Shown here: positions 35,806-59,590 of the stretch, in pieces | Position numbering within the stretch: position 1 is the stretch's first letter | How the letters are laid out: each line of letters starts with the position of its first letter | DNA from: Eledone cirrhosa | Lineage: Eukaryota | Length of the DNA stretch: 64,000 nt | NCBI GenBank assembly: GCA_964016885.1 | Contig: OZ024742.1 | Coordinates: forward strand, 139,004,001-139,068,000 | Reading direction: 5' to 3' | The notes under the pieces: model-generated | Databases searched by the model: none | What the model saw: the letters and a program-made list of their open reading frames with translations, nothing else | What the model was told of the DNA's origin: nothing | Translations under genes and position numbers: made by a program

Positions 35806-38800
35806 GGCGACCTACGTAGTAAATCGTATTATCGTGAGCTCCGCAAAGGTTTGTTATTTTCAGTTGTTTAAAATTGCCATTTATGGAAAATGTTTATTGT
35901 TAACTGTATATAAGTGCACATACATTGTTTTCTGAAAAGGACACTCAAAAAGATTGGGGCCTTGAGCCCAAAATTTTAACTTTTATAATTATCAAACAAC
36001 AATTTTTCTTTGAAAAATCATGGACGACTCAGAGTCACACCTTCCTCACAAACTAACAACTCACACCGACACCACCATTGTAAATATTACTACGTTTACC
36101 AACACTAAAAATATAAGCAGTAGCAATATTTTTAATTTGTCTCAGGCAGACATTCATTTCCCGCTATTACCAATGACTGCAGGTGTTAAAGCCGCCACTC
36201 CCACCACCACCACAGCGACAACAGAAACAAAATAAAAGATAAATTAACTCGTGATATCGAAATGAATTCAACCAGAATGAACTCTTCCACACCGAACACC
36301 ACTGACGCCACCACCACCACAACTGAAACTAAAATTAACAATAACAAAAATAACGATAACTACAACAACAACAATGAAATTAAGAAAACCACTATGAGTT
36401 TTGCCAGAGTAGCAAAAAAAGTGCGAAGCATTCCAGGTAACTCAGGAGGAATTAGAAGAAGCCAAAAAAATGGTAAAGAAAGATGAGTACAGGGTCAACC
36501 TCACCTCCACCTAATAAAATGGAGCATCGGCGCCTATGCACCGTGTCTTATCGGACGATTAACATAAAATCGCGCCGAGTGGAACGGGCATCCGAGTCCC
36601 AAATCCAAAAAGCTTTGGGACATGTGTGGGCAAAAAAAACCCACATCAGACGTGGGCAGAAATATGGAACCGTGGACGTGTTCTTTGAAACACCACAGGA
36701 GGCCAGAGAACACTCCATGGCCCCATTAAGAAGTGACGACTTCACACTCGTCCCAAGCTATTGTGGCCAGAGACTAGTGAAGATCAGGATGACACACGTT
36801 CCACCGGCCATCGAAATTCCCTGGCTAATAGCTGCCGGCATCGAAGCCAACACCAAGATAATCGAAATAGCGAAAGAAAAGCAGGAGAACTGGTCCGGAT
36901 CTGGGATGGAGCTCCTGATCCAAGCGGACCAAAAAAGCATTGAGGAGATTCCAGAGGTAATAGACCTCACTGACGGCAGCCACCTCACCGTAATCGTCGA
37001 GGGCAGAAGGCCTAGGTGTGTCGTTTGTGGTAAAGGAACCCACCTAAGGGCTTTCTGCCCTCAGGCTAAAAGGTTGAGGCCACCTCTCTTACCCACCCCA
37101 GTGACTCAACCATCAACATCACCAACAGCAGAAATGGCACCAACAACTGTAGCAGAAGCAACTGTAACAGCAACAACCCCAGCAACAGTAGCAAAACCAA
37201 CACCACCACCACCCAACGCGCCAGAACTAGCACCAGCGCCTACACCATCCACAACGCCACTCCCCTACCTATCGCAACTGGAGACGGATTGTGACGACGA
37301 GGAGTGGCAAACGGTATCAGAAAAAAAGTAAAAGAAACCAAAAAAGAAAAAAATCCTCTTCCTTCCCCCTCCAAAAACAAAATACAGAGGGAAACAAATA
37401 AACTATCAAACAAAAAAGTTAGGACAGCTATGCCACCATCCACACCAGCATCACCAACCCCATCACCACAAACACCAACACCATCACCATCATTAACCCC
37501 AACACCACAAAAGTCACCAAAAAGCGAAACAGAAACAAACCCACAACAAACGCAAACAAAACAAAACAACCAAAACGATACACACTACACAGCATTAAAT
37601 TTGAAAAACAACCAATTATTACACTACATCCAACACAACACCAGCATCATAGAAAAAGACTACACAACAACCCAAAAGTTCACACAACCTCCACACATAC
37701 AAATCACTCGCATCACACAGAAAACGTACACGACACTAAAACAAAAATTCCCCAAAGACATAGGAGACTTCCGCAAAGCACTCTCCAGGAGGATTTATAA
37801 GGACATCCTTCCTGAGGAGGCCACAAGCAGTGAAAAGGATGGAGAAACCGTCCTTCCTCTACGAGAAGTAAGGTAAGAGGTCTTTCCCATCTTTTCCACT
37901 CCATTTCAACATGACCTCACTCAGAATAGGCAGCATAAATGCACGTGGCTTGGGGTCGTCATGGAAGCAGGGCCACCTGCTCAACGACCTCAGGTCACTA
38001 AACATAGATGTAGTAGCCATCAGCGAGACCAGAATCTCCGAAGCACGGGCCTTCGCACCGATCTTCGGCGGCTACGATGTGAACGCATCTCGCGGCTGGA
38101 TCGGGGGGAGGAGTTGCTGTGTTTTTCGGAGAGGTTTGGATCTCGCCATACAGGCCATCTTCCTGGACCCAGAAGGTAAGTTGGTGGTGCTGGACGTGAC
38201 CAGCGGAGACGGGCAAGCTTTCAGGCTAGTAGCCGTCTATGCCCCGACAGATGCAGGGCGGCCTGATTTCTTCCGGCGTCTGGAGACCTTTCTTGGAACG
38301 TCCCGCTCTTTAGTGTTAGTGGGCGACTGGAACGGGATCTTAGATGCACGCTAGGACTGTGTGGGATTAGCGGATAGGGGAAGAGGGTGCAAGAGCCTCA
38401 CCAACCTGCTCAGGCGTTTTGAACTGTCTGACAGGTACCGATTGGATTTCCCGAATGTGCCAATGTGGACTTGGACAAATCGTATAGGGTCATCCAGATC
38501 ATATCTAGATAGAGTATTTTCTAGGGAAACAGATAGGTCTAGCATAGGTTGTCCACAATTCAAGATAGTCAGCTACACGGACCACAAATTCGTGATCTGT
38601 ATGCTTGACTTAGATAGGCTTCATAGACGAGGACCCGGCTACTGGAAGCTAAACACGTCTTTACCAGCGCGCAAGGCTTACAGAGACCGGATTAGCGAAC
38701 TAGTTAAGCGGGCGTTGACGGGGGCCATCGTCAACAACAAGTGGTGGTTTGCTCTGAAAAGAGCGATTAGAATATAGTCCATTAGGTTTAGTAAGGCTTT

Positions 38801-40014
38801 AGCAATAGAGAAAAATAGAGCAGAGAGAGAACTAGTTAGAAAATTAGACGAGGCGCTTAGCAAAGGAATTGCGACCGACGTACTTGCGGCGAAATTGGCC
38901 CTTGACCAATTCTTCAATGCAAAGCACGAAGGCTGCGTTTTCAAAGTTAGGGTGCGTGCTCTTAGACACGAGGGGACGAAAGCCGTTCAATGAGCCCGAG
39001 TGGCGGAGGCACGTCCTGGCAACAAAGCCACGATCCGGTCTTTGATGGACCACGACGGGCGCATGCTACTCGATCCTGGGCAAATGTGTGAAGCTTTCCT
39101 GCGACACTTCGCACAGCTGTACGGGGGCAGCGGCGGGCCGGATCGAGGGATGGGCTTTAGTGTCTACCTCGACGGACTGCTGTGGATCTGGGCCACTGAG
39201 GCGGAGTGTTGCGAAAAGCCGATAACAGCCACTGAAGTACGGGAGGCAATGACTGGCTGCACAAGGAGTAAATCGCCTGGTTTGGATGGTCTGCCCTATG
39301 AACTTTACGTACAGATGCCAGACTTGTTCGGAGGCCTCTTGGCGGACGTCTACTGCAACTGGCAACAGAACGGGAGAATTCCCAGCTCTGTGAGCCGAGG
39401 AGCTGTGGCGCTGCTGAGAAAGGATCTGAACAAGGGGGATAACATAGATAATTTCAGGCCCATAACTCTGCTAAACACAGAGTTCAAGATTTTGGCCAAG
39501 GTGCTAGCAAAGAGATTGGCGCTTGTCGTTGGTGGTCTGGTGGGAGAGGCGCAGACGTGCGCCCTTCCCGACTATCCATCCACGACAACCTCCACCTCAT
39601 GCGATACATCGTAGAGAGGGTAGCTAGGGAACCTGGTACGGGTGGCTCCTTGATCAATTTAGATCAGTCGAAAGCTTTCGATAGGGTCGACCATCGTTAC
39701 CTAGCAGCAGTCCTGATGGCGGATGGCTTTGGGCCCGTCTTCAGAGGCTGGATCGCTGCCATGCACAGCGACATTTGCTCTGTGGTGAGAGTGAACGGTC
39801 ACCTTTCGGAACCGTTCAACATCATGCGCTCGGTCCGCCAAGGATGTCCCCTCTCGTCCCTCTTGTACGTATTGACTCTCGAGCCATTACTGCACAAACT
39901 GGAGACGTTGAGGGGGGTTCCGCGCGAACTAGGATGCGGAAGATCCGTGTCAGCATATGCGGACGATGTCACCGTAGTGGTGTCGAACGCCAAACACATC
40001 GAGGCGATCGGCAC
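35806..40014 (+). mobile_element. Tx1/L1-clade LINE copy C: 5'UTR, ORF1 (~36020-37876), ORF2 (37911-40014, ends just after YADD); degenerate
   Basis: ORF1 knuckle CVVCGKGTHLRAFC; APE motifs SINARG, SET, GDWN, LDR, TDH; RT KSPGLDGLP, FRPITLLN, QGCPLS, YADD; stops and frameshifts. Confidence 0.95.
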
Positions 40015-43000
40015 TAATAATAAAGAAAGCAACCTGTAATAGCGATCTCAGCACCACCAGTAAGACCAGTAGCGGCAGCAATAGTGGTACTGCTGAAAAA
40101 GGGACCACTTTTTTTGCAGGTGTCGCCCGAAATATCGAGACAGTCTTAGTCACAGAGTAGGGCCATGGTGACAAGAAGCGCAAATAGAGTTTCCCTGAAA
40201 CCTCCACCCGATTTTTTCAAGGACCAGCAGCTACGGACGGTGACTTACCACACCGTAAGCAAAATCTCACATCGAGTGGAGAGAGCCACGGAGGCTCAAA
40301 TCCAAAAGGCCTTGGGGTGCGTCTAGGCACACAAAAGCCACATCATCCGAGGCAGAAAGTAAGCCACAGTAGATGTACTTTTCGCCACCCCACAGGAAGA
40401 AAAGTCTCACTCTTTGGAAACCCTAAAGAGTGAGGAGATATTCTTGGTGCCCTCCTACTGCGGGCAAAAAATTGTGAGGGTCAAAGTGACCCAGGTCCCA
40501 CCCGACGTGCCCATACCTTGGCTGGCCGCGTCTGTCCTTGCTGGAATCGAGAACAGGGCGACCATGCTGCAAGTAGAAAAAATAGCGAGTGAGAACTGGT
40601 CAGGTATAGGCATGCAAATGCTTATACAAATTGACCAGGAATGTATCGACGCTATCCCCGATATCATAGACATCGAGGAAGGACTCCAACTCCTTATAAG
40701 TGTAGAAGGAAGACGGCCAAAATGTTATCTCTGTGGGTCGAAGGGTCACCTCAGGGCCTATTGCCCGCAGAAGACAGCGAAGAAGGCCCCTCTCCTTCCA
40801 ATACCTGGTCCGCTGCTACCAAGAGCAAGGCAGGAAACAAACGAAGAATCCCCTTCCACGGTGAGTAGGAGGGCAACGTCCGTAGCACCCGTACCAAGGC
40901 CACGGACAACTAAAGCAGCATCATCAGTAGCGGCAACACCAATAGCTACATTTGAAGTAGCTACACCAGTAACAAAATTGCCGAAGAGGGCTCCACTACC
41001 ACCACCAACAGCCGTGGAGCACATACCCCTCCCAGACGCCACAGAATCCGACATGGAGTTTGAGGCGGGAGTGAAGTGGCAAACGGTCTGCCATAAACAT
41101 GGCAAAAAAAGAACTCATACAATATATAAAGCAGCACACAGACATCACAGAAAAAAACTACTACACCCCACCAACACGAAGAACTCTCCCGACAAACATA
41201 AGCATCATCGAAATCTCAATAGAACAGTACAAACCTTTAAAACAAAAATTCCCCAACGCAGTTGGAGACTTCGGAGGGTCGGTTACCAAGAGGATATACA
41301 CTGACATCCTTGACCAGCGAAAGGGACGGTTTTACTGTCCCTTCACCACACGAACAAGGTAAGTGACCCTTTCTCACTTGGCCTGTTTCTCATCCAACAT
41401 GGCTGTACTCAGAATAGGCAGTATAAATGCACGTGGCCTGGGGTCATCTTGGAAGCAGGGTTACCTGCTCAATAATCTCAGGTCGCTAAACATAGATGTG
41501 GTGGCCATCAGTGAAACCAGAATCTCCGAAGCACAAGCCTTCGCACCGATCTTCGGCGGCTACGATGTATACGCATCTCCCAGCCGTCCAGGATCGGGTG
41601 GGAGGGGTTGCCGTCCTTTTTCGGAGAGGATTGGATCTCGCGATACGGGCCATTTTCCTAGACCTAGAAGGTAAGTCGGTGGTGCTGGACGTGACCGGCA
41701 GCGAAGGCAATGCTTTCAGGCTAGTAGCCGTCTACGCCCCAACAGGGGCAGGAGGGCCAGATTTCTTCAGACGTCTAGAGACCTTTCTTGGAACGTCCCG
41801 CTCTTTAGTGTTAGTGGGCGACTGGAACGGTATCTTAGATGCACGCTGGGATCGTGTGGGGCTAGTGAATAGGGGAGGAGGGTGCAAGAGCCTCACCAAC
41901 CTGCTCAGACGTTTTGAACTGTCTGACAGGTATCGACTGGATCACCCGAATGTGCAAATGTGGACATCGACAAACCGCATCGGGTCATCCTCGATAGGGT
42001 ATTCTGCAGAGAATAGATAAGGCTAGTATAAGTTGTCCACAATTTAAAATAGTCGACTACACAGACCACAAATTTGTGATCTGTGAGATCGACATAGACA
42101 GACTTCATAGACAAGGGCCTGGTTACTGGAAGCTGAACGCGTCTTTCCCGGCACGCAAAGCCTACAGAGACCGGATTAGCGTATTAGTTAAGCGGGCGTT
42201 GACGGGAGCGGTCGTCAACAACAGGTGGTGGTTCGCCCTGAAAAGGGCAATTAAAGTAAAGTCGATTAGGTTTAGCAAAGGAGTAGTGATAGAGGAAAAT
42301 GGAGTAGAGGGAGAGCTAGTCAGAAAGCTAGAAGAGGCGTTTAGGACAGGCATCGCAACCGACGTGCTTGCGGCGAGATTGGCACTCGACCAATTCTTCA
42401 ACGCAAAACACGAAGGCTGCGTTGTCAGAGCTAGAGCGCGTGCTCTGAAACACGAGGGGACAAAAGCCGTCCAATGGGCCCGGGTGGCAGAGGCGCGACG
42501 TGGCAACAAAGCCACAATTCGGTCTTTGTCTGACCAAAATGGCTGCGTGATGCTCGAACCCGAGCGGATGTGTGAAGCTTTTCAGCAGCACTTTGCTGAA
42601 CTGTTCGGGAGCGGCGGCGGCCCGGATCGGGGCATGGACTTCAGTGCATACCTCGACGGACTGCCTCGGCTCTCGACGACAGCAGCACAGTGTTGCGAAA
42701 AGCCAATAACAGCCGGTGAAATACGGCAAGCGATGACTAACTGCACAAGGGGTAAATCGCCAGGTTTAGATGGTCTGCCCTACGAGCATTATGCATTTAT
42801 GCCAGACTTGTTCGGTGACCTCTTGGCAGACGTCTACTGCAACTGGCAGCAGAACGGGTGCATTCCCAGTTTTGTGAGCCGGGGAGCAGTGGCGCTGCTG
42901 AGAAAAGACCCGAACAAGGGGGGTGTTATCGATAATTTCAGGCCCATAACCCTGCTAAACAAGATTTTGGCCAAGGTGTTAGCAATGAGGTTGGCGCTTG

Positions 43001-45100
43001 TCGTCAAGGGTCTGGTGGGAGAGCGCAGACATACGCCATTCCGGACAGATCCATACACGATAACCTCCACCTCATGCGATACATCATAGAGAGGGTGGTT
43101 AAGGAACCTGGCAAGGGTGTGGCCCTGATCAACTTGGATCAATCCAAAGCATTCGATAGGGTCGACCATCGGTACCTGGCGGCGGTCCTCGAGGCAGCCG
43201 GTTTCGGGCCCGTTTTGAGGGGTTGGATCGCAGCAATGTACAGCGACATCTGTTCAGTTGTGAGGGTGAACGGTCACTTGTCGCAGCCGTTCAGCATCAT
43301 GCGCTAAGTCCGCCAGGGTTGTCTCCTCTCGTCCCTCTTGTACGTATTGGCTCTCGAGCCGTTACTGCACAAACTGGGGGCGATGAGGGGCGTCCTACGC
43401 GAACTAGGATGCGGGAAATCCGAGTCGGCTTACGCTGACGACGTCACCGTGGTGGTGTCGAGCACCAGACACGTCCAGATGCTCGGCACCGCTCTCAAGG
43501 AATACGAAGCGGTGACAGGAGCAAAGATAAACCAGGAAAAGTCGGTGGGCTTGCAGCTCGGCACCTGGAGAGGCAAGTCCATGCCGTCCGACAGCGTTGT
43601 GGGGCGTTGGACGGACGGACCGGTTAAATTGCTCGGGGTCTGGTTCGGACCGGACCTCCAGATGGAGAAAAACTGGAACGAGGTGACGAGCAGGGTGGCC
43701 TCCCTCACCTAGAAATGGGCTGAGAGGAAGCTGTCCCTGAAAGGCCGTGTGGAGGTGGCGAATGTGTACATCGCATCCGTCATCTGCTACTGCCTCACCG
43801 TCGTCCCTTGCTCCAGCCCAACTCTCACCAAAATGGAGTGCCTCCTCTTCCGCTTTTTGTGGAAGGGACGCGCTCCTATGGTCAGACGATCCATCTGCTG
43901 TCAACACCCGTTGCGTGGAGGACTGGGCATACCATGGCTGATGATGCGCAAACATGCGCTGAGGCTGCGACATCTCTGGTGCTTCCTTGATGGTGAACGG
44001 GTGTGGTCGCCGTTCGCCAGGCACGTTTTCCCACAGCTCGTCTCCTTGACGGAGCTGCAGTCCTGGGTCAGAAAAAGACCGAGGGATAGCGCTTGGAAAC
44101 TGGAATGTCTCCAGGCGCTCACTGCCCTCTCCCAGCTGGGCACCAGTATCGATGGAACATCCACCTCGGCGTTCTATAGAGGACTAGTGGAGGGGAAGAG
44201 CGACGACATTCTCGGAGAGATCCTGGGCGTCGAAGAAGATCAGCTGATTGCTCTCTTCCGGAGAACTTTCAGCCCAGGGCCTATGGATAACTTCCAGAAA
44301 TCCCTGGCCTGGCAGTGCTACCGGGGAACTTTGCCTGTTCGAGATAACTCTACAGGCACGGAAGTGCCGTCAGCCGAGCCTGTCCGAGATGCGCGCGGAG
44401 CGACGAAACCGTCGTGCACGCACTGGTTCAGTGCCCGAGCATTGCTGACTTGTGGAGCTATGTCGAACAGTTGCTGTCGCGTGTGGGACTGATCCAGTTG
44501 TCGACTGAGTCCATTGTGCAGATGGTCTCGCCGTCTTCCTTCGAGGAGGAGGGGCAGGCGGTTTTCATCTGCCTGGTGGCCATGGCGAAAGAGATTGTGT
44601 GTTGGACAAGGTTAAAAGGGTTAAAGACAGACACTTTCCTTTTCGGCGAATCCCTAATTAACTTTTTCAAGTTTCACTTGAAGAGGAAAATCAGGGTGGA
44701 GAGGCAAGTGCTGCTTTCTAGCAAGTTTGTTGAAAGGTGGGTGAATGTAACGAGAATGGTCCGAGTGAACGGGACCACTCTGAATATACGCCTGTAGTTT
44801 GAGAAATGGCAAACATGAAAGAGGTCGCTTGCCCTGGTGGTAAGGGTGGCCGTGGTCTTTTGTGTGGTTTTCGCCAAGAGTAACCCTCTGAGGTTTCCCC
44901 CTATTGGGGAATTTTTCATTGTTTCAATTTTCATTTTTATTGTTTATATATATATATATGTTTCTATGTCCTTTTTTTTCTTTTCTTATATAAATAGTAA
45001 AAATATTTACACGCACAAAACCCACATCGTACCGTCTTGTACCGTCCTGTGCCGTCTGTAATGTTTTTCTTGATGTCAGCCCTTGTGGCCAATAAAGAAA

Positions 45101-45150
<50 letters not shown>
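40015..45150 (+). mobile_element. Tx1 copy D: 5'-truncated ORF1 (to ~41362), full-length decayed ORF2 (41399-44797), 3'UTR, (ATT)n tail
   Basis: CYLCGSKGHLRAYC knuckle; APE, RT and C-terminal CPRC..ET..HAL..C motifs; AATAAA then ATT repeats 45104-45150. Confidence 0.95.
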
Positions 45151-45152
<2 letters not shown>

Positions 45153-48100
45153 ATGCTATGGTTGACGGAGGCTCGGCTCTGTAAGGTATTGTAAATTTTG
45201 ACCACTATAACAATTGTAAATTGTTTAAAACTTTAACCAACTTGTAGACAAAAACACCCTCCTCGTCGTGAGAGGGGTCTTTCTGCCGGTTATTTGGCCC
45301 TTCGGGGTTAAATAACCGCTTATTGGGGTTTTGTGCCCAATATTTATTTTAAACAAAAAACAACAACATGGCTACGAAAAAGAATTTTCATAGGTCACTC
45401 CCACTCATTCCGTCTTCTTCTTCCTCAATCGTCACTACAGCAGAGAGAAGATTGTCTCTCTCCCTCCCTTCTCTAAATGTGTCTCTCTCCCTCCCTTCTC
45501 TAAATGTGTCTCTCTCCCTCCCTTCTCTTTCGCAAGCGACGCCAGAAAAGAAAAATCACGTGCAAAGCGTGCAAGATTTCTCCACGACGACGACGACAAC
45601 GACGAAAAAGGTGTGCGGGAAATACGAAAACCCATTTCATTCGTCTGACGTCAGGAATAATAGCAGTAGCAGCCGTAATAACAGCAGCAAGAGTGACAAG
45701 GAAAACAACAGTAGCAGCCGCAACAACAACAGCAGCAGCATAAACAACAACAGCATTAGCAGCAACAGCAACAACAACAGCAGCAGCAGCAGCAATAACA
45801 ACAACAACAACCACAGCAACAGCGGCAGCGGCAGTAGTCGTAGTACCTGCAGCAACAACAAAAGTAACAGCAGCTCTGACGACAACAACAACAACAACAA
45901 CAGTAGCAAAGAAAAATCAATCTCATTTGCAGGTATCGCAAAGAACCTGGAAACCATCCTCATAACAAATGAGGAATTAGAGGAAGCGAAGAAGATGGTG
46001 ACGAAAACCGGACACCGAGCAATCTGCAAGGCAGCCGAAAAATCTTTCGAAACCCAACAGCACTGTATGGTCACGTACCGTACAGTAAGCACAAAATCCC
46101 GTAGGGTTGAAAGAGCCACAGAGGCTCAAATACAAAAAGCCTTAGGGTCTGTGTGGCAGCGGAAAACGCACATCACCCGAGGCGAGAAATATGCCACCGT
46201 AGACGTGCTTTTTGCCACACCCCAGGAGGCAAAGGCTCAATCCTTAGTGACCCTAAGGAGCGAGGAAATGGTGTTGGTGCCCTCCTACTGCGGGCAAAAA
46301 ATTGTAAGGGTCAAACTGACCCACGTCCCCCCCCCCCCCCGGGATGGCCCCTTCTTGGCTGGCCGCGTCTGTCCTCGTCGGAATCGAGGACAAAACAACT
46401 GTACTGCAAGTACAGAAAAAAGTAAGAGAAGATTGGGTCGGCACCTCCATTGAGATGTTAATCCAAACCAACCAGGAGTGCATCGAAGCTATCCCGGATG
46501 TGATAGACTTCGATAACGGCACTCAACTGCCCATAAGTGTTGAGGGCAAACGCCCGAAATGCTTTCGCTGTGGATCGAAGACTTACCTCAGGGTCTTCTG
46601 CAACGAGAAGACCCTGAGAAAGGAGAAAATCCCCCTCCTTCCGAAACCGGCTCCACGGCTATCAGCAACAGGACAAGCGGCAACCAGTGGCACCCATACC
46701 CACGCCACGGAAATCAAAAACAGCAGCAGCAGTGGAAGTATTAACAACAACAACAGTAATACCAAATGCAGCTGCAACAGAGACTCCAGTGCAAACATCA
46801 CCAACAACAACAAGTGAAAGAGTGGAGCTGGTACCCCTCCCCGACCTCACAGAATCAGACATGGAGTGTGAGGTGGGAGAGGGATGGCAAAAGGTCGTAA
46901 GAAGGCACAAACGCAGAAGCAGCGCATCGTCGCCTTCGAAAAGGGAGGAAAGAAATGAAAAAAGGGTAAAGGCTACTGCAAAGAGACTCACAGCAGCAGC
47001 ACCACCAACACCATCACCACCCACACTAGCACCATAATCACCAATGGCGACAACCCCACCGCCAACAACAACAACACCTTCAACACCACCACCACAAGCA
47101 CCAACATCGCAAACACACCCAGCAACAACGACAAGAAAATAGCAGAACCACACCCCACCCCCAGAAAAACAAATGCACGGCAATAAATACACACAACAAG
47201 AAACTAATGACTTACATAATTGAACACACAGACATTTCACAGCACGACAACATAATACCAGCACCAATCAAAACGCCAACTAACATAAGACTGCTAAAAA
47301 TAGCACAGAAACAATACACAAACATTAAAACGAAATTCCCCAACGCAGTTGGTGATTTCAGAAACCTAGCAGGGACTCTCAACCGAAGAGTATATTCGGA
47401 CATACTCATAGAAGAGCCGACGACCAGCCGAAGGGACGATTCAACAGTCCCTTCACCAGACGATCAAGTGAAAAGGGATGGAAAAACCATCCTTCCTCTA
47501 CGAAAAGTACGGTAAGTGGTCTTTCCCATCTTTTCCACTCTATTTTAAACATGACCTCACTCAGAATAGGCAGCATAAATGCGCGTGGCTTGGGGTCGTC
47601 ATGGAAGCAGGGTCACCTGCTCAACGACCTCAAGTCACTAAACATAGATGTAGTGGCCATCAGCGAGACCAGAATCTCCGAAGCACGGGCCTTCGCACCG
47701 ATTTTCGGCAGCTACGATGTGAACGCATCTCGCGGCTGGATCGGGGGGAGGAGTTGCTGTGCTTTTTCGGAGAGGTTTGGATCTCGCCATACGGGCCATC
47801 TTCCTGGACCCAGAAGGTAAGTTGGTGGTGCTGGACGTGACCAGCGGAGACGAGCAAGCTTTCAGGCTAGTGGCTGTCTATGCCCCGACAGAAGCAGGGC
47901 GGCCTGATTTCTTCCGGCGTCTGGAGACCTTTCTTGGAACGTCCCGCTCTTTAGTGTTAGTGGGCGACTGGAACGGGATCTTAGATGCACGCTGGGACTG
48001 TGTGGGATTAGCGGATAGGGGTGGAGGGTGCAAGAGCCTCACCAACCTGCTCAGGCGTTTTGAACTGTCTGACAGGTACCGATTGGATTTCCCGAATGTG

Positions 48101-49550
48101 CCAATGTGACTTGGACAAATCGCATAGGGTCATCCAGATCATATCTAGATAGAGTATTTTGTAGGGAAATAGATAGGTCTAGCATAGGTTGTCCACAATT
48201 CAAGATAGTCAGCTACACGGACCACAAATTCGTGATCTGTGTGCCTGACTTCGATAGCCACTTCTTGGCTGGCCGCGTCTGTTCATAGACGAGGACCCGG
48301 CTACTGGAAGCTAAACGCGTCCTTACCAGCGCGCAAGGCCTACAGAGACCGTATTAGCGAACTAGTTAAGCGGGCGTTGACGGGGGACATCGTCAACAAC
48401 AAGTGGTGGTTTGCTCTGAAAAGAGCGATTAGAATAGAATCGATTAGGTTTAGTAAGGCTTTAGCAATATAGAAAAATAGAGCAGAGGGAGAATTAGTTA
48501 GAAAATCAGACGAGGCGCTTAGCAAAGGCATTGCGACCGACGTGCTTGCGGCGAAATTGGCCCTTGACCAATTCTTCAATGCAAAGCACGAAGGCTGCGT
48601 TGTCAGAGCAAGGGTGCGTGCTCTCAGACACGAGGGGACGAAAGCCGTTCAATGGGCCCGAGTGGCGGAGGCGCATCGTGGCAACAAAGCCACGATCCGG
48701 TCTTTGGTGGACCACGACGGGCGCATGCTACTCGATCCCGGGCAAATGTGTGAAGCTTTTCAGCGACACTTCGCCCAAATGTTCGGGGGCAGTGGCGGGC
48801 CGGATCGAGGGATGGGCTTTAGTGTCTACCTCGACGGACTGCCGCGGCTTTCGGCCACTGAGGCGGAGTGTTGCGAAAAGCCGATTACAACCGCTGAAGT
48901 ACGGGAGGCAATGACTGGCTGCACAAGGGGTAAATCACCTGGTTTGGATGGTCTGCCCTATGAACTTTACGTACAAATGCCAGACTTGTTCGGAGGCCTC
49001 TTGGCGGACGTCTACTGCAACTGGCAACAGAACGGGAGAATTCCCAGCTCTGTGAGCCGAGGAGTGGTGACGCTGCTGAGAAAGGATCCGAACAAGGGGG
49101 ATATCATAGATAATTTTAGGCCCATAACTCTGCTAAACACAGAGTTCAAGATTTTGGCCAAGGTGCTAGCAAAGAGGTTGGCGCTTGTCGTTGGTGGTCT
49201 GGTGGGAGAGGCACAGACGTGCGCCATTCCCGACAGATCCATCCACGACAACCTCCACCTCATGCGATACATCGTAGAGAGGGTAGCTAGGAAACCTGGC
49301 ACGGGTGGGTCCTTGATCAATTTAGATCAGTCGAAAGCCTTCGATAGGGTCGACCATCGTTACCTAGCGGCAGTCCTGAGGGCGGCTGGCTTTGGGCCCG
49401 TCTTCAGAGGCTGGATCGCTGCCATGCACAGCGACATCTGCTCTGTAGTGAGAGTGAACGGTCACCTTTCGGAACCGTTCAACATCATGCGCTCGGTCCG
49501 CCAAGGATGTCCCCTCTCGTCCCTCTTGTACGTATTGACTCTCGAGCCAT
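45151..49550 (+). mobile_element. Tx1 copy E: 5'UTR, ORF1 (45368-47515), ORF2 (47551-49550, broken inside RT)
   Basis: CFRCGSKTYLRVFC knuckle; APE and RT to QGCPLSSLLYVLTLEP; ORF1 is D-like and ORF2 is C-like. Confidence 0.95.
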
Positions 49551-49779
49551 AGCTATGGTAAATGAAATGGAGAATTAGTGATTGCAAGGTGAACACATAA
49601 ACCATTCAGCTATGCTATTTCCCCTAACTGGTGATACGCATCTGGAATATCGTGTCTAATAATATGGGATTATATAACTACTGCCGATTAGTCAATATAT
49701 CGATTTAAAAACAATGAACTGATTAAGCACTAAACTTCGCCTTTTGTTTTGATTGTTCAACATACACATATACATCATC

Positions 49780-50540
49780 ATTATCATCATCATCAGTTTT
49801 ACGTCCGTTTTTCCATGCTTGCATGGGTTGAACAGCATCTCTCCACTCACCGCATTGCTTCGTCATCTCCTCTGTGAGTCTCGGCGATATGGGATCAGCT
49901 CTCACCAACCCCGCCCAGGTCTTCTTTGGCCTACCTCTACTGTGACTTCCTTCCACTGAGATTTCCTGGCACATGTTCACTCAGCGACCATAGACCATGC
50001 GCATCACATGTCCATATCAACGCAGTCTCCTCTCTTGCATACCAATTCAAATTCCTATTAAAACCAGTTTCTCCCTCAGTTCATACAAGCTCTGCCTTTC
50101 TCTCACATTTACATTGTGCATCCAACGAAGCGTGGTTGCTTCATTTCTCTCCAGGTTACATTTTTTCTGTAGGCACTGCCCATGTTTCCCTGACATGCAG
50201 CTTGGCACTTTACACACAGATATTATACATACGTCCTTTTGTATGTAGGCAGAAACCTTTTATTGTTAACAGTGGGAATAGCTATCTCAACTTCTGTCAT
50301 CCTATCCATATTCTAGCTATTATGCTCTCAGAGCACACTCCGCTACTAATTAAGTCACCTAGAAGCTATCAACCACTTCTATAGATCCTTCATTGAGTAC
50401 ATCGGATAGAGTTTGTGCCCACTACTTTTCTACATACTAAACAGGGCCACTTCCCCGATGGAATCAGGGCCCTAACTTATCAGCATTTTATATGTAGGAT
50501 CCTGATGTAAATTGAGAGGCAACCACATTCCTGATGATTA
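49780..50540 (-). mobile_element. Decayed RTE LINE 3' fragment
   Basis: Minus GRPKKTW motif and (GAT)n-type tail, homologous to 22110-22896. Confidence 0.75.
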
Positions 50541-50587
50541 TTTATGAATGAAACATTTCTAGTCCTGTAGAAAACATTTCTAAAATA

Positions 50588-50825
<238 letters not shown>

Positions 50826-50828
<3 letters not shown>

Positions 50829-53800
50829 TTTCTTTATTTACCATAAAGGCATAAAAAGAAGGGACAAATACAAAGGGGGAGTTTACATAAAATCGAGTAA
50901 AAAGGGTATAAAATGAAAACAACCTTAAAAGGGAGGGGACGTGATGGGGGTTGCACACACCCCCGAAAAAGTGTGCAATTCTTTGCCCGGGGAGCACATG
51001 GAGAAGGTGCTCCCCTCTCCTTCACTTCTTTACCAGGATGGTATACAGAGAAGGCCCATTTACACGAGCCATTCTCGCCACTATCACCCACCTTTCATAA
51101 AACTGCCCGTGGCCAAGCACCTCTCTCTCCATTCTTATCCTTCTTCCGAAGTGATATCGGAAGAAGTAGACCAAACTATGGCCAGAGAGGAAGTTGCCTG
51201 ACCTCAGACCTTTCAATCGTGTCCATCAAACAACCTCTTTCAACATGGCTATTACGCACAGAAAAACCGCCTTTGCTTCCTTTGTGTAGAGGGGAGGCGG
51301 CTTGATTGTCATCACGGACTCGGCGGTCAATCGAATCGGCGCCACCCGCGACAGCAGTCGTTCGGCTTAGCCCCACAGATCAGCCACGCCCGGACATTGC
51401 ACCAATGCGTGCGCAACGGTTTCTTCGTGACGCACGCATCTAGGGCAAATCTTTTTCGAGGGATCCCTGCCCGGGCGCCCGTGTCTGTAGAGCCTCTCTC
51501 GAACGGGTAGAGCCCCTCGGTAGCACTGCCAGGCTAGTGACTTCTGGAAGTTGTCCATTGGTCCCGGGCCGAAAATCCTACCGAACAGGCTGGACAGTTC
51601 GTCCTCTTCCATGTCCAGCGACTCTCCAAGGGTGTCATCGCCCCTGCTAGCCACCAGCCTTCTATAGAATGATGAGGTGGATTCTCCACCGATGGCCTGG
51701 CCCGCTTGCCAGAGAGCCCTGAGCGCCTGGGCACACTCAGTGTGCCAGTCTCCCAATTTTCCGGATCTTTGCTTCACACAGGACTGCAGCTCGGTGAGCG
51801 AGACGAGTCTCAGAAAGGCTCGTTTCACGAACGGAGCCCACACCGGTTGACCAGTGAGGAATACCTGTAGGTGCCGTAGCCTTAATGCGTGCCTACGCAT
51901 CATCAACTACGGCATCCCCAGCCCTCCTTTCGAAGGTTGTTGGCAGCAGATGGATCTTCTCACCATAGGAGGGCGCTTCTTCCAAAGAAATTGGAAGAGC
52001 ATGCGTTCCATGGTGGTGAGTGTTTCCTTAGGGCAAGGCACGACAGTCAGGCGGTAGTAAGTGACGGACGCTATGTAAATGTTCGCCACCTCCGCCCGAC
52101 CTTTTAGGGACAGCTTACACTTGGCCCATTTCTGGGTTAGTGCAAACACCTTGTTCGTAACCTCGTCCCAGTTCTTTTCCACCTGGAGGTCGGGTCCAAA
52201 CCAAACCCCAAGCAACTTGACCTGGCCCTCCGTCCAGTGTCCGACGACACCCTCGGGAGGCATCGGTCTGCCTCTCAACGTTCCGAGTTGCAGCCCGATG
52301 GATTTTTCCCGGTTCAGTTTCGCTCCTGACAACCTTTCGCAATCCTCCAGTAAGGTACCGATCGCCTCGATCTCCGAGTCGGTCGATACCATTACTGTTA
52401 CGTCATCGGCGTAGGCCGACACCGCTTTGCTCAATCCTGGTTCCAGGGGGATACCCTGCAACAACTCCAACTTCCTCAGTAAAGGCTCGAGAGTCAATAC
52501 GTACAGAAGGGAGGAGAGAGGGCACCCCTGTCGAATGGATCGTGTGATTTCGAACGGCTTCGAAAGGTAGCCGTTCACCTTGATCCTAGAACAGATGTGG
52601 TTGCTATGTAAGGCAGTGATCCAGCCTCTGAAAACAGGACCGAACCCAGCCGCCGCTAGCACCGCATCCAGGTAACCATCCAGGTAACCTATCGAAGGCC
52701 TTAGACTGATCCAAGTTGAACAGGGCCCCACCGAAGCCGGGTTTGTTGCCAACCCTCTCTATGATGTATCGCATGAGGTGGAGGTTATCGTGAATGGACC
52801 TGGATGGGATAGCACATGTCTGCGCATCTCCCACCAGGCCACCCACGACAAGCGCCAACCTCTTTGCTAACACCTTGGCCAAAATCTTTAACTCTGTGTT
52901 TAGCAGGGTTATGGGCCGAAAATTATTTATACTATCCCCTTGTTCTCGTCCTTCCTCACCAGCGAGACTACGCCCTTGGCTACAGAACAAGGAATTCTCC
53001 CGTTCTGCTGGCAATTGCAGTAGACCGCTTCGAGGAGTTCGGAGAAGAAGACCGGCATTGCTAAATAAAGTTCGTAAGGTATACCATCGAGACCTGGAGA
53101 TTTGCGTCTGCTGTATTGGCTCAGCGCATCCCCGATCTCATCAGCCGAGATTGGTCCCTCGCAGGACTCTGCCTCTTCGCTCGAGAGACGCGGCAGGCCG
53201 TCGAGGTATGGACCGAAATCCACGTCCCCGCCCGGACCCTCGCCTCCCCCGAATAATCGGGCAAAGTGCCTTTGAAAGGCCTCGCAATCTTCTTAGGCTC
53301 CCGGATCACCCGTCCATCCTCGTCTTGCAAAGACCGGACGGTGGATCGATTTCCACTCTTAGCTTCTGTCACGCGGTCCCAGCCAACGGCTTTGGCCCCC
53401 TCATTACCTAGAGCACGTATTTTACTTCGAATGACGCAGCCTTCGTGCTTTGCATCGAAAAACTGGTTCAAGGCCGTCCTCGATGCCAGCACTCTGGCCA
53501 CATCTTCGCTCTTGATTGCCTCTTCTAATTTACCTGTTAATTCTTTCTCGTTTCTATTCCTATCGGCAGCTAACATCTTGCTATAACTTATTGATTCTGT
53601 TCTAATCTCTCTTTTGAGAGATGCCCACCATCGGTTGTTGACGATTGCACCCGTCAACCTCTCCTTAACTAATCTGCTAATCCGGTTTCTATAAGTCTCT
53701 TTTGCCGGTAAAGACAAATTAAGTTTCCAGTAACCGGGACCCTGTTTATGTGTTTTCTCGAGATTGACTACGCAGGTCACTAATTTGTTATCCGTATAGC

Positions 53801-56646
53801 CAACCGTGAGCATTTCTGGACAGCTTAATATGTCCCTATCCTTACTTCTAACTAAGAATCTATCTAAGTACGATCTAGATTGACCACTGTGGTTCGTCCA
53901 AGTCCAGGTTGGCACAGTTGGAAAATCTAGTCGATATCTATCGACTAAGTTAAAACGGTCGAGTAACCCCTTGAGGCTGTTACACCCCCCTCTATTAGGA
54001 CATGCTCCTGCATAGTCCCAACGTGCATCTAGGATGTCATTCCAATCACCCGCTAGAAGCAGGGAACGCAACGTTCCCAGAAAAGTCTCCAAACGCTGGA
54101 AGAAGTCGGGCCGTTCAGCTCCGAAAGGGGAGTAGACGGCGACCAGTCTCAAGGCCGCACCTTCACCACTGCCAACGTCTAGCACCAACAAACGACCCTC
54201 CGGGTCCGAGTGAACAACCTGTACGGCGAGACCCAGGTGTTTTTCCAGCAGTACGACAACCCCACCCCCACCTCCAGGTTGACAAAGAGATGCATGCACC
54301 TCAAAGTCATCGAAGGTAGGGGCCAGCTGCCGCACGACGCTGATCCGAGTCTCACAGATAACCATTACATTTATACCACGTGACCTGAGGTCATTTAGAA
54401 GCTTTGCTTGCTTCCAAGTTGAGCCCAGGCCACGTGCATTCAAACATCCTACTCTTAACACATCCATGTGGGCGGCAAAGCCAAAGGAGAGTGTAGATAC
54501 CTACCTTTCTGCTTCCCGGGGTTCGGGTCGCACGACTTCCATGGGGTCGGGGGTGTTGGATGAAGGGGTGTCTTCTGGTGGTGTGGGGTCGTCAGTGTGT
54601 GGTGGGGTTGGGGTGTTTGGAGTTGTGTTGGGGAAGGGAAGGGGAGGGGGAAAGCTTTTTAGTAGAACGCGGTTTATGGGTTTGACAGAGGGTGGTCCTA
54701 CGTCCTCCTTAAAATCCTTTTTTAGTTTTTGGTAGAGGTTCATTGGGATCTTTATTAATTTTAAATGTGGGTAGTTTTCTGAAGAAACAAAGTTTACACC
54801 TTCGGTTTGTACCGAAGGATTATTGTTTATGAGTTCATTTAATTTATTATTGTTTCTGTTGATGTAAGTATAGTGTAATGTCTTTTTTTCGGATGGTGTG
54901 AGTGTTTCGAAGAGGGGAGGGGCAGGTTTGGTTTTGTTTGTTGCTGGAGGGGTGTTTTGTGTTTTGTTGGATTGTGTTGACATTTGGGTAGGGGTTGTTT
55001 GGCCTTGTGTGTTTTGCACATGTTTTCTTTTTTTCCTTTTAATCTGTCTGAAGGACTCCGTTTCTTCCTCCGAATTCGTTGGGTTATCTTCAGTGTTGGA
55101 GGGAAGAGGTATGTTTGCTGGTAATGTTTCCGTGTTGGTTTTCTTTGTGGGGGAGATGGGTGTCACTATGTTAGACTGTGTTGTGTGTTGTGGCTGCGGT
55201 GGTTGTGTTGTTTTATTGAGTGAGGGGTTGGGTGGGACTGTATTTTGTTTTTGGGTAATGTGTTGTGACTGTTTGTGTTGTTGTGGTGGTGGTGTAGTAT
55301 TACTGAGGGACGGGTTGGGTGGGACTGAGTTTTGTTGTTTGTTTATCTGTTGTGGTGGTGGTGGAGCTGGTGTTGGTAGCAGGGTTTTATTTTTGTTGAG
55401 TTGGTGACAAGCCGCCTTCAGGTGCCCTCTGCCTGCACAGATATGACAGGACGGCCTTCTCCCCTCCACGCTAATGTTTATATACCCGTGGCCCTCTAAT
55501 AGGATTCTGTCGGGTATTTGGGCGATGCGTTCAGGCTTCATTTGCACTACAAGTTCTATACCTGTTCCACTGAACGCATTGCCTGTGGTTTTCCCAATGG
55601 AAATCACGTTGTCATTCGCTGGATCGATGAAGCCAGCTATGAGCCCAGCAGTAGTCCACATCTGGCATCATTGCATCCAGCCATATGCGCTGAGTTCTTT
55701 TACCCATATAAGATGGATAAAAGGTAAAATTTGTCGAACGAATCGGTGACAAAGCACATTTTTTTGCCGCCGATTCGTTCTTCATAATAATCGCTAGGCT
55801 TCCATACAGTCTGTCTCTTCTTATGAAAGTGGTTTCATTAAGTACTTCTGTAAGTACTGCTTTGATTTCTGTTTGTGTTGGCTGTTGAGATTTTTTTAGA
55901 AATGTTGATGGTGCGGAAAACGACCGTCCGACTTTCAATGTCTTTGGTGAGTTCTTGAGGCATTTTTACCGATAAAATACCATTTTCCCCTTCAGTAATG
56001 TATTGTTTGGCGTCTGTAATTCTTTGTGCCACATCTGAAATATTTTCAGGTATATATGTCAAAGATTTCTTTGTTGTTTATGCAAATGAAATATTATTGG
56101 TGTTGACTTTGTCGTCTGCTTTGCTTTCTGTTATGATGTTGTTTTCAAATGTTATTTTTGTGTTTGTCGTGTCTTTGTTTGTGGTATTAATATTGTCATG
56201 CAATTTTTCAAATTTTTTTTTTTTCGTTGTTGGAATCAATGTCCAGATTTGTGTTTTCGTTATTTTTTTACGCAGATTCGTCTGTTTTTATTTTATTTTT
56301 TCTTTCCTTCTCTATGACGTTAGTTGGGAAGGAAGGGGGGGGGGACTAAAGCGTGCGAGCTTACAACTCTTACCGCTGTCCCCCCACCACTATTTTCGTT
56401 AACTTCGTTTAACATTTCTGTCAGACGATTGAAATTTTTTATGCCACAACATTTTTAAAAAGAGGATTTTCACCCCTGGGAGGGGCAAAGATGAGCTGAC
56501 CCACCGCCTGACAGTTCAGACGGGGGGTCAAGCTACACAATAGTATCAAAATTAAAATTGAACTTACAAAATTTCCGCAATAAATTTGAACAAAACTTCT
56601 GCGCGAAGTGAATTACATCTACGCTGTAGAACAGACGACAGCTAGA
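50826..56646 (-). mobile_element. Tx1 copy G, divergent second family, near full length: ORF1 (~56200-54501), ORF2 (54467-~51022)
   Basis: CHICAGRGHLKAAC knuckle; APE ORF 53121-54467; RT YADD; CPRCVRHEETVAHALVQC; AATAAA then (ATCT)n tail; (TAGA)n on both flanks. Confidence 0.95.
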
Positions 56647-57897: not shown

Positions 57898-59590
57898 TAA
57901 TAATAAAATAATAATAATAATAATAATGTTTTCTTTATTAACCACAAGGGTTTACATAAAGTAGACATTAAGGACAGTACAGGACAATACAGGACGGTAC
58001 AAATGGGAATTTCTGCGTGTAAAAAAAACAGAGGATGTAATAAAATAACAAAGAAAAATTCCCCAATAGGGGGGAAACTTCCGAGGGACATTTGTGGAGA
58101 AAGCCCATTAAAAGACCACAGTGACCCTGACCACCAGGACAAGTGCCCTCTCCCAGTTTTCCACCTTTAATTTACAGACACATACTCAGAGAAGGCCCAT
58201 TCATTCGGGCCATACTTGCTTCTCTCACCCATCTTTCAACAAAATGCTGGGAAGAGAGCACTTCCCTCTCTACCCTGATTTTCCTTTTCAAATGAAATTT
58301 GAAAAAGTTGATCAGGGCATCACCGAAGAGGTAAGTGCTCGTCTTCAGCCCTTTCAAACGTGTCCACCATACTATCACTTTCGCCATGGCCACCAGACAG
58401 ATAAAAACTGCCTGCCCTTCCCGGCTAAAGGAAGAGGGCGGGGCAATCCTCACGATGGACTCAGCTGATAGCTGGATCCGTCCTACACGTGACAGCAGGT
58501 TTTCGACATAAACCCACAAGTCAGCAATGCTCGGACACTGGACGAGTGCGTGCAGGACGGTTTCGTCGCCCTGTGCGCATCTCGGACATGCCCGGCTGAC
58601 GGCACCTCCATGCCTGTAGAGTTTATCCCGAACTGGCAAAGCTCCCCGGTAGCACTGCCAGGCCAGGGATTTCTGGAAGTTGTCCATAGGCCCCGGCCCG
58701 AAAGTCCTTCCGAAGAGATTGGCTAGTTGATTTTCGTCGACGCCTAGAGTTTCTCCAAGTACGTCGTCGCTCTTCCCCTCCACTAATCCCCTATAGAACG
58801 CCAAGGTGGAGTTTCCACTGATCACATTGCCCGATTGGTCGAGGGCTGTGAGCGCCTGAAGACATTCCAGTCTCCAAGCGCTCCCTCTCGGTCTTCGCTT
58901 GACCCAGGACTGCAGCTCCGTCAAGGAGACGAGCTGGGGAAAAACGTGTCTAGCAAACGGCGACCACACCTGATCACCGTCGAGGAAGAGGTGGAGATGT
59001 CGTAGCCTGAGCGCGTGTCTGCGCATCATCAGCCACGGCATACCCAGCCCTCCACGTAGCGGGTGTTGACAGCAGATGGACCGCCTGACCATCAGAGCGC
59101 GTCCCTTCCACAAGAAGCGAAAGAGCAAACGCTCCAGCGCAGTCAGGCGGCGCTTAGAACATGGTACGACGGTCAGGTGGTAGTAGATGACGGACGCGAT
59201 GTACGCGTTAGCCACCTCCGCTCGACCTTTCAGGGATAGCTTCCTCTCCGCCCATTTCTGGATGAGAGAAGCCACCCTGCTCGTCACCTCGTCCCAGTTT
59301 TTGTCCGTCTGGAGGTCTGGACCGAACCAGACCCCTAGCAATTTAACCGGTCCGTCCGTCCAGCGCCCGACGACGCTGTTGGACGGCATGGACCTGCCTC
59401 TCCAGGTGCCGAGCTGCAGGCCCACTGACTTTTCCTGGTTGATCATTGCTCCTGTCACCGCTTCGTATTCTCTTAGTGTAGTGCCGATCGCCTCGATGTG
59501 TTTGGCGTTCGACACCACTACGGTGACATCGTCCGCATATGCTGACACGGATCTTCCGCATCCTAGTTCGCGCGGGACCCCCCTCAACGT
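57898..59590 (-). mobile_element. Tx1 copy F: RT C-terminal half to 3' tail; open 471-aa frame
   Basis: ORF 58172-59587 AYADD...CPRCAQGDETVLHALVQC; AATAAA and (ATT)n tail. Confidence 0.95.

What the first reader, a model, noticed from the sequence alone, without database searches (positions are those of the whole stretch)
37865..54510. Every Tx1 LINE carries a consensus 5' splice donor on its ORF1 stop
Seen: C AAG|GTAAGA (GT at 37873), D AAG|GTAAGT (41359), E ACG|GTAAGT (47512), and the distant family G AAG|GTAGGT (54504, minus). Each donor overlaps the ORF1 stop and is followed by a pyrimidine-rich spacer, the ORF2 ATG and an AG in ORF2 codon 5. This defines GT-AG segments of 52, 54, 53 and 51 nt. 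G's ORF1 tail and spacer are otherwise unalignable with the others, yet the donor persists. In C, E and G, removing the segment fuses ORF1 to ORF2 in frame. Caveats: in D's probable ancestral frame (aligned to E) the donor is phase 1, so fusion is not universal, and the codon-5 AG may simply reflect a conserved Arg. Inference: a selected U1 site used for an ORF1-ORF2 fusion, an ORF1-only spliced mRNA, or protection from premature polyadenylation. LINE ORF2 is normally made by reinitiation or translational coupling, and I know of no described splice-based junction in Tx1 elements.
Basis: partly seen in the sequence, partly recalled or inferred. Interest (0 to 1): 0.85.

Follow-up and report, generated by a model that had tools for sequence, protein, structure and literature searches.

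The report
LINE likely splices out its enzyme
A large family of jumping genes keeps a textbook splice-start signal exactly where its first gene ends, and likely uses it to cut out the whole enzyme gene and make a message for the RNA-packaging protein alone, rather than to fuse the two genes, though no spliced RNA has been seen.

Summary
Observation confirmed. All four donors are at the stated coordinates. Genome-wide, 9,483 of 10,556 ORF2 starts of this LINE group carry G|GTRRGT 20-50 nt upstream. Across 15 families the core -1..+6 is near-invariant while ORF1 frame (phases 0, 1, 2), spacer length (25-52 nt) and flanking letters vary. A relative with 41% ORF2 identity keeps it; its sister family does not. 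The short ORF1-ORF2 fusion is rejected: the intron would be 39-42 nt in four families, out of frame in seven, impossible in the relative (ORF1 stop lies before the donor), and no intron-less copy was found. Best reading (0.55): the donor joins an acceptor at or just after the ORF2 stop, giving an ORF1-only mRNA, gated by a predicted long-range stem that pairs both ends of ORF2. Predictions written beforehand for four families held, including a joint phase switch of donor and downstream stop in family Q. Against: no RNA evidence, no processed copies, weak acceptors partly explained by the stem. Rival: U1 binding without splicing. The scan noted this before on other pieces of this genome and one other genome. 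Interest 0.72.

The parts
37870..37878 (+). Element C 5' splice-donor 9-mer over the ORF1 stop (TAA 37874-37876); phase 2
37879..37913 (+). C pyrimidine spacer and ORF2 ATG (37911); predicted 5' arm of the long-range stem
   Evidence: family copy
40032..45108 (+). Element D, 5'-truncated, with ORF1 end, ORF2 and 3' UTR
41356..41364 (+). D donor; phase 1 in the family, ORF1 stop TGA begins at +6
41365..41443 (+). D spacer, ORF2 ATG (41399) and first codons: predicted 5' arm of the stem
   Evidence: duplex z -4.5 against 100 shuffles
44750..44849 (+). D ORF2 end, TAG stop 44795-44797 (candidate acceptor AG, phase-1 stop one codon later) and purine-rich 3' UTR start: predicted 3' arm
45148..49550 (+). 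Element E, 5' part (ORF1, junction, ORF2 to the RT), following an (ATT)n tract
47509..47517 (+). E donor over the ORF1 stop (TAA 47513-47515); phase 2; ORF2 ATG at 47551
50829..56625 (-). Element G, full length, ending in a (TATA/TATC)n tract; this copy has lost the ORF2 TAG near 51035 (approximate)
54499..54507 (-). G donor over the ORF1 stop (TAG 54503-54501); phase 2; ORF2 ATG at 54467
57913..59590 (-). 3' piece of a C/E-type element: ORF2 stop TAA 58174-58172 (no AG) and a poly-U...CAG candidate acceptor in the 3' UTR near 58010 (approximate)

Best explanation
These LINEs carry a conserved U1-type splice donor at the end of ORF1 that likely joins an acceptor at or just behind the ORF2 stop, so that part of the RNA would lose the whole 3.4-kb ORF2 and become an ORF1-only message, while a predicted long-range stem pairing both ends of ORF2 would keep the rest unspliced. 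Shown: the donor, its conservation, the stop codons behind the ORF2 stop, and the complementarity of the two arms. Inferred: (1) U1 binds the donor; (2) the acceptor is the AG of the ORF2 TAG in most families and a poly-U...CAG site about 160-180 nt into the 3' UTR in C, E and N; (3) a stop within 1-2 codons of the join rebuilds an ORF1 protein of nearly the same end; (4) the stem, once its 3' arm is made, covers donor flanks, ORF2 AUG and acceptor, and so sets the share of full-length RNA; (5) the purpose is a surplus of ORF1p over ORF2p.
For: Donor: 9,483 of 10,556 ORF2 starts (family Q is outside this pattern). Across 15 families -1 G, +1 G, +2 T, +6 T are 15 of 15; +5 G 14 of 15; +3/+4 always purine; neighbours are mixed. 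Phases 2 (9 families), 1 (6) and 0 (1) all occur. +2..+4 have mean pairing probability 0.53, 0.36, 0.39, and the T at +2 stays where it is an unpaired Gly wobble (J, K1), so neither protein nor stem alone fixes it. In far1 (36 of 38 junctions listed; the other rows are far2 and two more distant elements) the ORF1 stop lies just 5' of the donor. Acceptor side: the top-ranked AG of about 250-270 lies at or after the ORF2 stop in G, H, C, E, far1 and (of 118) N; rank 2-4 in M, I, O, Lf (my own simple score). A stop within 2 codons in the family's own phase in 10 of 14 families with a TAG. Predictions noted first: J 8 of 8 ends found (11 fetched), K2 4 of 4 (5 fetched), K4 1 matching end (4 fetched); family Q, in the phase-2 clade (85-86% to H), has its near stop in phase 1 and proved to have a phase-1 donor in 8 of 8 junctions. 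C and E, which lost the TAG, and N, whose phase mismatches, carry the strong 3' UTR acceptor; D has CAC there. Stem: z -3.4 to -7.4 in 15 of 15 families; own 3' arm ranks first in 9 and within the top 3 in all 15. Precedent: Drosophila copia removes all of POL as an intron; Arabidopsis EVD (PMC5580714, passages).
Against: No spliced RNA has been seen. No genomic copy with ORF1 joined to the 3' end was found in any of the junction searches; weak, since an ORF2-less RNA would rarely be copied. Acceptors are weak: stop-AG rank 6-36 in K1, K2, K3, N, D and 42 in far1. I, O, Lf and N have no near stop in their own phase (42-100 codons). The stem explains much of the acceptor look: the stop AG and the G behind it pair opposite the letters before the ORF2 ATG, and purine-rich arms make T-R-R stops common. 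With background rates 4 of 6 lineages gives P 0.001-0.006, but a 1-in-3 phase null gives about 0.08 (hand calculation). J and K2 had stops in 2 of 3 phases, so those tests were easy. In C, D, E and H the donor itself is predicted to be fully paired. far2 has the stem (z -5.4) but no donor at the ORF1 end.
Confidence: 0.55

Rival explanations
1. U1 binds the site without splicing and protects the full-length RNA from early cleavage and polyadenylation, or steers its nuclear handling; the acceptor-like letters at the ORF2 stop come from the stem.
For: The donor is far stronger and more constant than any acceptor. No processed copy was found. In EVD the same donor both splices and blocks early termination (PMC5580714, passages). 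The two roles can coexist.
Against: ORF2 has no AATAAA/ATTAAA in 9 of 17 representatives, while such hexamers are common upstream of the donor. It does not predict the joint phase switch in Q or the 3' UTR acceptor in C, E, N.
Confidence: 0.22
2. The real device is the long-range stem, which hides the ORF2 AUG until a ribosome finishing ORF1 opens it (coupled reinitiation); the donor-like letters are a stop-codon and stem-end motif with no U1 role.
For: The stem is in all 15 families and both far relatives, including far2, which lacks the donor. SART1 coupling needs a downstream structure and L1 ORF2 is made by reinitiation across a spacer (PMC5972666, passage).
Against: The letters are those of the U1 consensus, vary only within it (GTAAGT, GTAGGT, GTGAGT, GTAATT), stay fixed where unpaired, and ignore the ORF1 frame; the partner strand changes while the donor does not.
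Confidence: 0.15
3. A short intron from the donor to the ORF2 codon-5 AG fuses ORF1 to ORF2 in frame.
For: In frame in the phase-2 families, including C, E, G.
Against: 39-42 nt in H, Lf, I, O; out of frame in the 7 phase-0/1 families; far1 has its ORF1 stop before the donor and 13 nt to the ATG; the AG ranks 17-167 and is AAG in G. An RNA making ORF2p should be copied in cis (PMC5860796, passages), yet none of 20 C/E, 2 G and 28 D hits with a non-G at +1 is intron-less, against 679 exact intact E-type donors.
Confidence: 0.03
4. Shared ancestry only: the motif is an unselected leftover of an Arg-stop or Gly-Lys-stop ending.
For: All families of this genome descend from one ancestor; AG|GT-AAG also arises from Glu-Gly-Lys codons inside ORF2 of C, D, E.
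Against: Fourfold sites between deep families are 41-58% identical and 10-27% with far1, yet the 7-letter core holds; the internal ORF2 site is absent in G.
Confidence: 0.05

Closest known systems
Tx1-clade LINEs that target microsatellites (Kibi (TC)n, Koshi (TTC)n, crocodilian (TTCC)n/(TTTC)n families; PMC4494074, passages seen)
   Same: Two ORFs, APE endonuclease, RT, C-terminal zinc region; insertion into (ATT)n or (TA/TATC)n with tandem stacking.
   Different: The passages seen describe no splice signal or ORF2-spanning stem; clade placement against named Tx1 elements was not testable.
Drosophila copia spliced GAG RNA and Arabidopsis Ty1/copia EVD shGAG (PMC5580714, passages seen)
   Same: A conserved U1-type donor at the end of the structural gene, a stop soon after the join, donor stronger than acceptor; in copia the intron is the whole enzyme region.
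   Different: Those are single-ORF LTR elements. Here ORF1 already has its own stop, the element is a LINE, and a long-range stem is predicted across the intron.
Human L1 splicing and SpIREs (PMC5860796, passages seen)
   Same: LINE RNA with working splice sites; spliced RNAs that still make ORF2p are found as genomic copies.
   Different: The L1 events described lie in the 5' UTR or 5' UTR/ORF1 and give dead-end copies; no donor on the ORF1 stop appeared in the passages seen.
Termination-reinitiation of LINE ORF2 (SART1, mammalian L1; PMC5972666, passage seen)
   Same: Short spacer, ORF2 ATG in good context, structure around the restart; probably how ORF2p is made from the unspliced RNA here (inference).
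   Different: No overlapping stop-start; ORF1/ORF2 frame relation varies among families.
Drosophila TART subgenomic RNAs (PMC1636488, passages seen)
   Same: A two-ORF non-LTR element with putative partial-length RNAs proposed to tune protein ratios.
   Different: Its mapped introns are in antisense RNAs; subgenomic sense RNAs come from other start and poly(A) sites.

Membership tests
Tx1-clade LINE | ORF2 with APE endonuclease, RT and C-terminal zinc-binding region | tested here: met
   Exo_endo_phos, RVT_1, zf-RVT; weak L1 endonuclease hits, E about 1e-5
Tx1-clade LINE | Separate ORF1 ahead of ORF2, about 6 kb, poly(A) signal before a simple-repeat tail | tested here: met
   ORF1 frames of 626-714 codons and ORF2 of 1,139-1,145 aa; AATAAA before the tail
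Tx1-clade LINE | Target preference, here microsatellites | tested here: met
   Ends read by eye in (ATT)n for D, E and (TA/TATC)n for G; not counted against a background
Tx1-clade LINE | RT groups with named Tx1 elements, apart from L1 | not testable with these tools
Copia-type spliced subgenomic RNA (works-like) | Conserved U1-type donor at the end of the structural gene | tested here: met
Copia-type spliced subgenomic RNA (works-like) | Conserved acceptor behind the enzyme region | tested here: inconclusive
   Top-ranked in 6 representatives, rank 2-4 in 4, rank 6-36 in 4 others; site differs between lineages
Copia-type spliced subgenomic RNA (works-like) | Stop codon soon after the join | tested here: inconclusive
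   10 of 14 TAG families within 2 codons; joint phase switch in Q; fails in I, O, Lf, N
Copia-type spliced subgenomic RNA (works-like) | Spliced RNA detected | not testable with these tools
   No RNA holder listed
Ty1/copia (membership) | LTR element with single GAG-POL frame | tested here: not met
   Two-ORF non-LTR anatomy
Short in-frame fusion intron | Spliceable length and matching phase in all families | tested here: not met
   39-66 nt; phases 0, 1, 2; exonic stop in far1
Short in-frame fusion intron | Intron-less genomic copies, expected from cis preference | tested here: not met
   0 of 50 hits with non-G at +1 in C/E, G, D
SART1-type stop-start coupling | Overlapping stop and start codons | tested here: not met
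   Donor-to-ATG distance 13-52 nt, stop and start apart

The most novel reading that the evidence does not exclude
A LINE lineage has built its entire ORF2 as a retained intron bounded by its two stop codons, and uses a co-evolving RNA stem of about 80 base pairs joining both ends of ORF2 as a switch between an ORF1-only message and the full-length template; donor phase and downstream stop evolve together to keep the ORF1 end intact.
Probability: 0.45. Interest if true: 0.88.

Novelty: new variant of a known kind. Interest (0 to 1): 0.72.

Why it matters
LINEs need far more ORF1p than ORF2p and are thought to get the ratio from poor reinitiation on one two-gene RNA (established knowledge; PMC5972666 passage). 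A dedicated ORF1-only mRNA made by splicing out ORF2 would be a second solution, so far described for copia-type LTR elements. My ten literature searches (open-access library only) showed no such case for a LINE. It gives exact junctions to test in any RNA set of the host. About 10,000 near-perfect donors in one genome could also disturb host splicing where copies lie in introns (inference). A donor plus distal acceptor also offers a route to ORF1-only elements of the HAL1 type (name seen in the listing; link is my inference).

Tried and rejected
RNA: no RNA holder listed (6 runs, kind unknown). Three of the six were laid on 40030-50550. None of the 15 joints shown (28 not shown) or 18 loose ends shown (558 not shown) starts at the D or E donor, and one 1,412-nt contig of X4 crosses the E donor unspliced. 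As the run kind is unknown this is no evidence either way; a closer look at the junction in these runs was not obtained. Processed copies: none in E/C (5 hits; 20, 22: 20 hits), G (21-22: 2), D (86, 88: 28, of which 3 are not the element), G/I/L/O stop join (50, 54: 12 hits, none a LINE join, control 3), H/M (51: 0), Q (84: 0), J (85: 0). One copy deleted from the donor onward (L092 = L105) rejoins at a 3-nt microhomology with no AG, so it is not a splice. These patterns miss joins to other G-starting exons and copies changed near the junction. Lariat- or promoter-derived ORF2 RNA: C/E copies truncated within 60 nt of the ATG numbered 3 loci, none at the GT (needs a perfect target repeat). Readthrough or frameshift: rejected because the ORF1/ORF2 frame relation is 0 in G, -1 in D and E, +1 in C. 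Upstream acceptor for an ORF2-only mRNA: an AG just before the ATG exists only in Q, N and some K families. The far1 stem scored z -0.2 in the first window pair and -3.5 after the windows were moved to the best-scoring place, so it is a post hoc result. In G the ORF2-end window only narrowly beats an internal one (-71.8 against -71.3). Viral contigs gave no relatives. No Rfam match in L290, L311. My early notes gave 29/30 and 48/50; the counts from the calls are 26 of 27 (loci chosen by likeness, so not independent) and 46 of 50. PMC13282606 (passages) lists 13 recently active L1-Tx1 families in an octopus and has 0 occurrences of 'splic'. No supplements were read; repeat libraries in supplements could hold notes on these families.
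Full report
What is there. The window lies in a 3.0-Gb genome and holds a stack of related two-ORF LINEs: C (junction only), D (40032-45108), E (45148-49550), G (50829-56625, minus) and 3' pieces. ORF2 has an APE endonuclease, RT and zinc region. Full copies are about 6 kb, sit in (ATT)n or (TA/TATC)n tracts and end with AATAAA before the tail. This fits microsatellite-targeting Tx1 elements as described in PMC4494074 (passages), but placement against named Tx1 could not be tested.

All four donors, spacers, ATGs and codon-5 AGs are as stated. To avoid choosing copies by the donor I drew ORF2 starts by a pattern of the first codons. 46 of 50 such loci carry the donor; one has a variant donor further up, two are point mutants, one is deleted. 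Genome-wide, 9,483 of 10,556 starts have exact G|GTRRGT 20-50 nt upstream. Copies are not independent, so the unit is the family. I sorted them by eye into 16 (C, D, E, G, H, I, O, Lf, M, Q, J, K1-K4, N; labels mine; some K groups may be one lineage). Among 16 representatives (14 of this genome, 2 distant) the ORF1-end site matches the U1-complementary 9-mer at 8 of 9 letters in 12 and 7 of 9 in 2, against a chance of 0.003 and 0.025 per 55 nt.

The constraint is on the RNA letters. Between the deep families ORF2 N-termini are 56-73% identical and fourfold sites 41-58%. Spacers run from 25 to 52 nt. ORF1 meets the donor in phase 2 (C, E, G, H, I, O, Lf, M, N), phase 1 (D, J, K1, K3, K4, Q) or phase 0 (K2, where ORF1 reads nine codons past it). 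Yet -1 G, GT and +6 T are fixed in 15 of 15 families and all variants stay within the donor consensus. A relative at 41% ORF2 identity, in tandem arrays on contigs filed in a bacterial MAG (probably host DNA; inference), has the same donor directly behind its ORF1 stop and 13 nt before the ORF2 ATG (far1); its fourfold sites are saturated against this genome's families. A second family on those contigs (far2, L311) lacks the donor, and only 1 of 9 relatives at 25-31% shows one by eye. So the trait marks a lineage, not every Tx1.

The fusion fails. GT to codon-5 AG is 39 nt in H, 41 in Lf, 42 in I and O; the join is out of frame in seven families; far1 cannot fuse at all; that AG ranks 17-167 among the element's AGs by a simple acceptor score. 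Spliced L1 RNAs that still make ORF2p are copied in cis and seen in the genome (PMC5860796, passages), so a fusion RNA should have left intron-less copies. None of 50 hits with a non-G at +1 in C/E, G and D is one, against 679 exact intact E-type donors alone.

Where the donor could go. I noticed the TAG|G at the ORF2 stop; earlier notes of the scan proposed the same. 14 of 16 families end ORF2 with TAG. Joining the donor to that AG meets a stop within two codons in the family's own phase in 10 of 14. Predictions were written before fetching. J, K2 and K4 met them (8 of 8, 4 of 4 and 1 matching ends found among 11, 5 and 4 fetched; one further end at a K4 place belonged to another element), though J and K2 have stops in two phases. 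The sharper test was Q: known only by 3' fragments, grouped with the phase-2 families H and M (support 86/88), with its near stop in phase 1. Its donor proved to be phase 1, with a changed but still consensus sequence, in 8 of 8 junctions. C and E have lost the TAG; they and N carry a poly-U...CAG in the 3' UTR that is their top-ranked AG and gives a 20-codon tail in C and E; D has CAC there. far1's top AG lies 54 nt after its stop. Counter-cases: I, O, Lf and N give 42-100 codons at the stop AG; acceptor ranks are poor in D and the K group.

The stem. Earlier notes reported that the ORF2 start region pairs with the ORF2 stop region. I tested it. The duplex beats 100 dinucleotide shuffles with z -3.4 to -7.4 in 15 of 15 families and -5.4 in far2; each family's own 3' arm ranks first in 9 and within three in all 15; in E the ORF2-end window is clearly the best partner in the element, in G narrowly, in far1 after a post hoc shift. 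The pyrimidine spacer pairs with the purine run after the ORF2 stop, so it is not a polypyrimidine tract for a nearby AG. The stem lowers the weight of the acceptor signal, because the stop AG and the next G pair opposite the letters before the ATG, and purine-rich arms favour stops. With plain background the phase match has P 0.001-0.006 for 4 of 6 lineages; with a 1-in-3 null about 0.08 (hand calculation). The stem does not explain the donor: +2..+4 are mostly unpaired in I, O, Lf, J, K1, and the partner letters vary while the donor does not.

Mechanism. Most likely (0.55): U1 binds the donor during transcription; some RNAs splice to the far end of ORF2 and yield an ORF1-only mRNA with a rebuilt stop; in others the stem closes over donor flanks, ORF2 AUG and acceptor and keeps the RNA whole for ORF2 reinitiation and copying. 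Shown: motifs, conservation, phase pattern, complementarity. Inferred: U1 binding, splicing, the acceptor, the stem in cells, the purpose. Rivals: U1 binding without splicing (0.22), a translational stem with no U1 role (0.15), ancestry alone (0.05), fusion (0.03). No spliced RNA was seen, and no ORF2-less genomic copy was found.

Comparison and novelty. It would work like Drosophila copia, whose GAG RNA loses all of POL as an intron, and like Arabidopsis EVD, where the donor is the conserved site and also blocks early termination (PMC5580714, passages). It is not a copia element. Human L1 and TART splicing as seen in passages of PMC5860796 and PMC1636488 concerns other sites. PMC10.1101/2025.02.02.635956 passages concern host-exon chimeras. 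Ten searches of the open-access library showed no LINE case; other papers were seen as listings only. Verdict: real feature, new variant of a known strategy, unproven without RNA. Interest 0.72.

Noticed in passing
window 1-10087: Tandem array of a 27-bp unit, 378 copies, 87% matches, with extreme strand skew.
   Followed up: no
window 60500-64000: Helitron-type coding region; Helitron_like_N at 61535-62275, E 1.7e-44.
   Followed up: no
L311, 3' UTR after the ORF2 stop at about 4430: far2 lacks the ORF1-end donor but has a perfect donor about 40 nt after the ORF2 stop and a strong pyrimidine tract plus AG about 145 nt further: a canonical-looking 3' UTR intron kept in the DNA copy (read by eye).
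   Followed up: no
L290, 3' UTR after the ORF2 stop at about 8470: far1 has a second donor-like site 14 nt after the ORF2 stop, then acceptor-like sites at +54 and about +265.
   Followed up: partly
L281-L320: Tandem arrays of intact LINEs fill many contigs of a record titled as a bacterial MAG; probably host-animal DNA in that record (inference).
   Followed up: no
window 38176, 41671, 47817: A second AAG|GTAAGT inside ORF2 at Glu-Gly-Lys codons in C, D, E; absent in G.
   Followed up: partly
window about 45186; L119-L124 5' ends: C/E-type 5' UTRs have a donor-like AAG|GTA about 35 nt from the 5' end.
   Followed up: no
L402-L409, L199, L326, L337 spacers: Families Q, N and some K have an AG 5-9 nt before the ORF2 ATG behind a pyrimidine run, a possible acceptor for an upstream donor; absent in the other families.
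   Followed up: no
L094, L095: Two E-type copies have AA to GG at +3/+4 of the donor; could be copies of A-to-I edited RNA, or plain mutation.
   Followed up: no
L118 and L119: Two E copies on different contigs share about 2 kb of 3' flank at 97% identity: 3' transduction or segmental duplication.
   Followed up: no
L245 about 1925-1935: A relative at 25% ORF2 identity has G|GTGAGT over its ORF1 end in phase 1, like family Q; single case, may be chance.
   Followed up: partly
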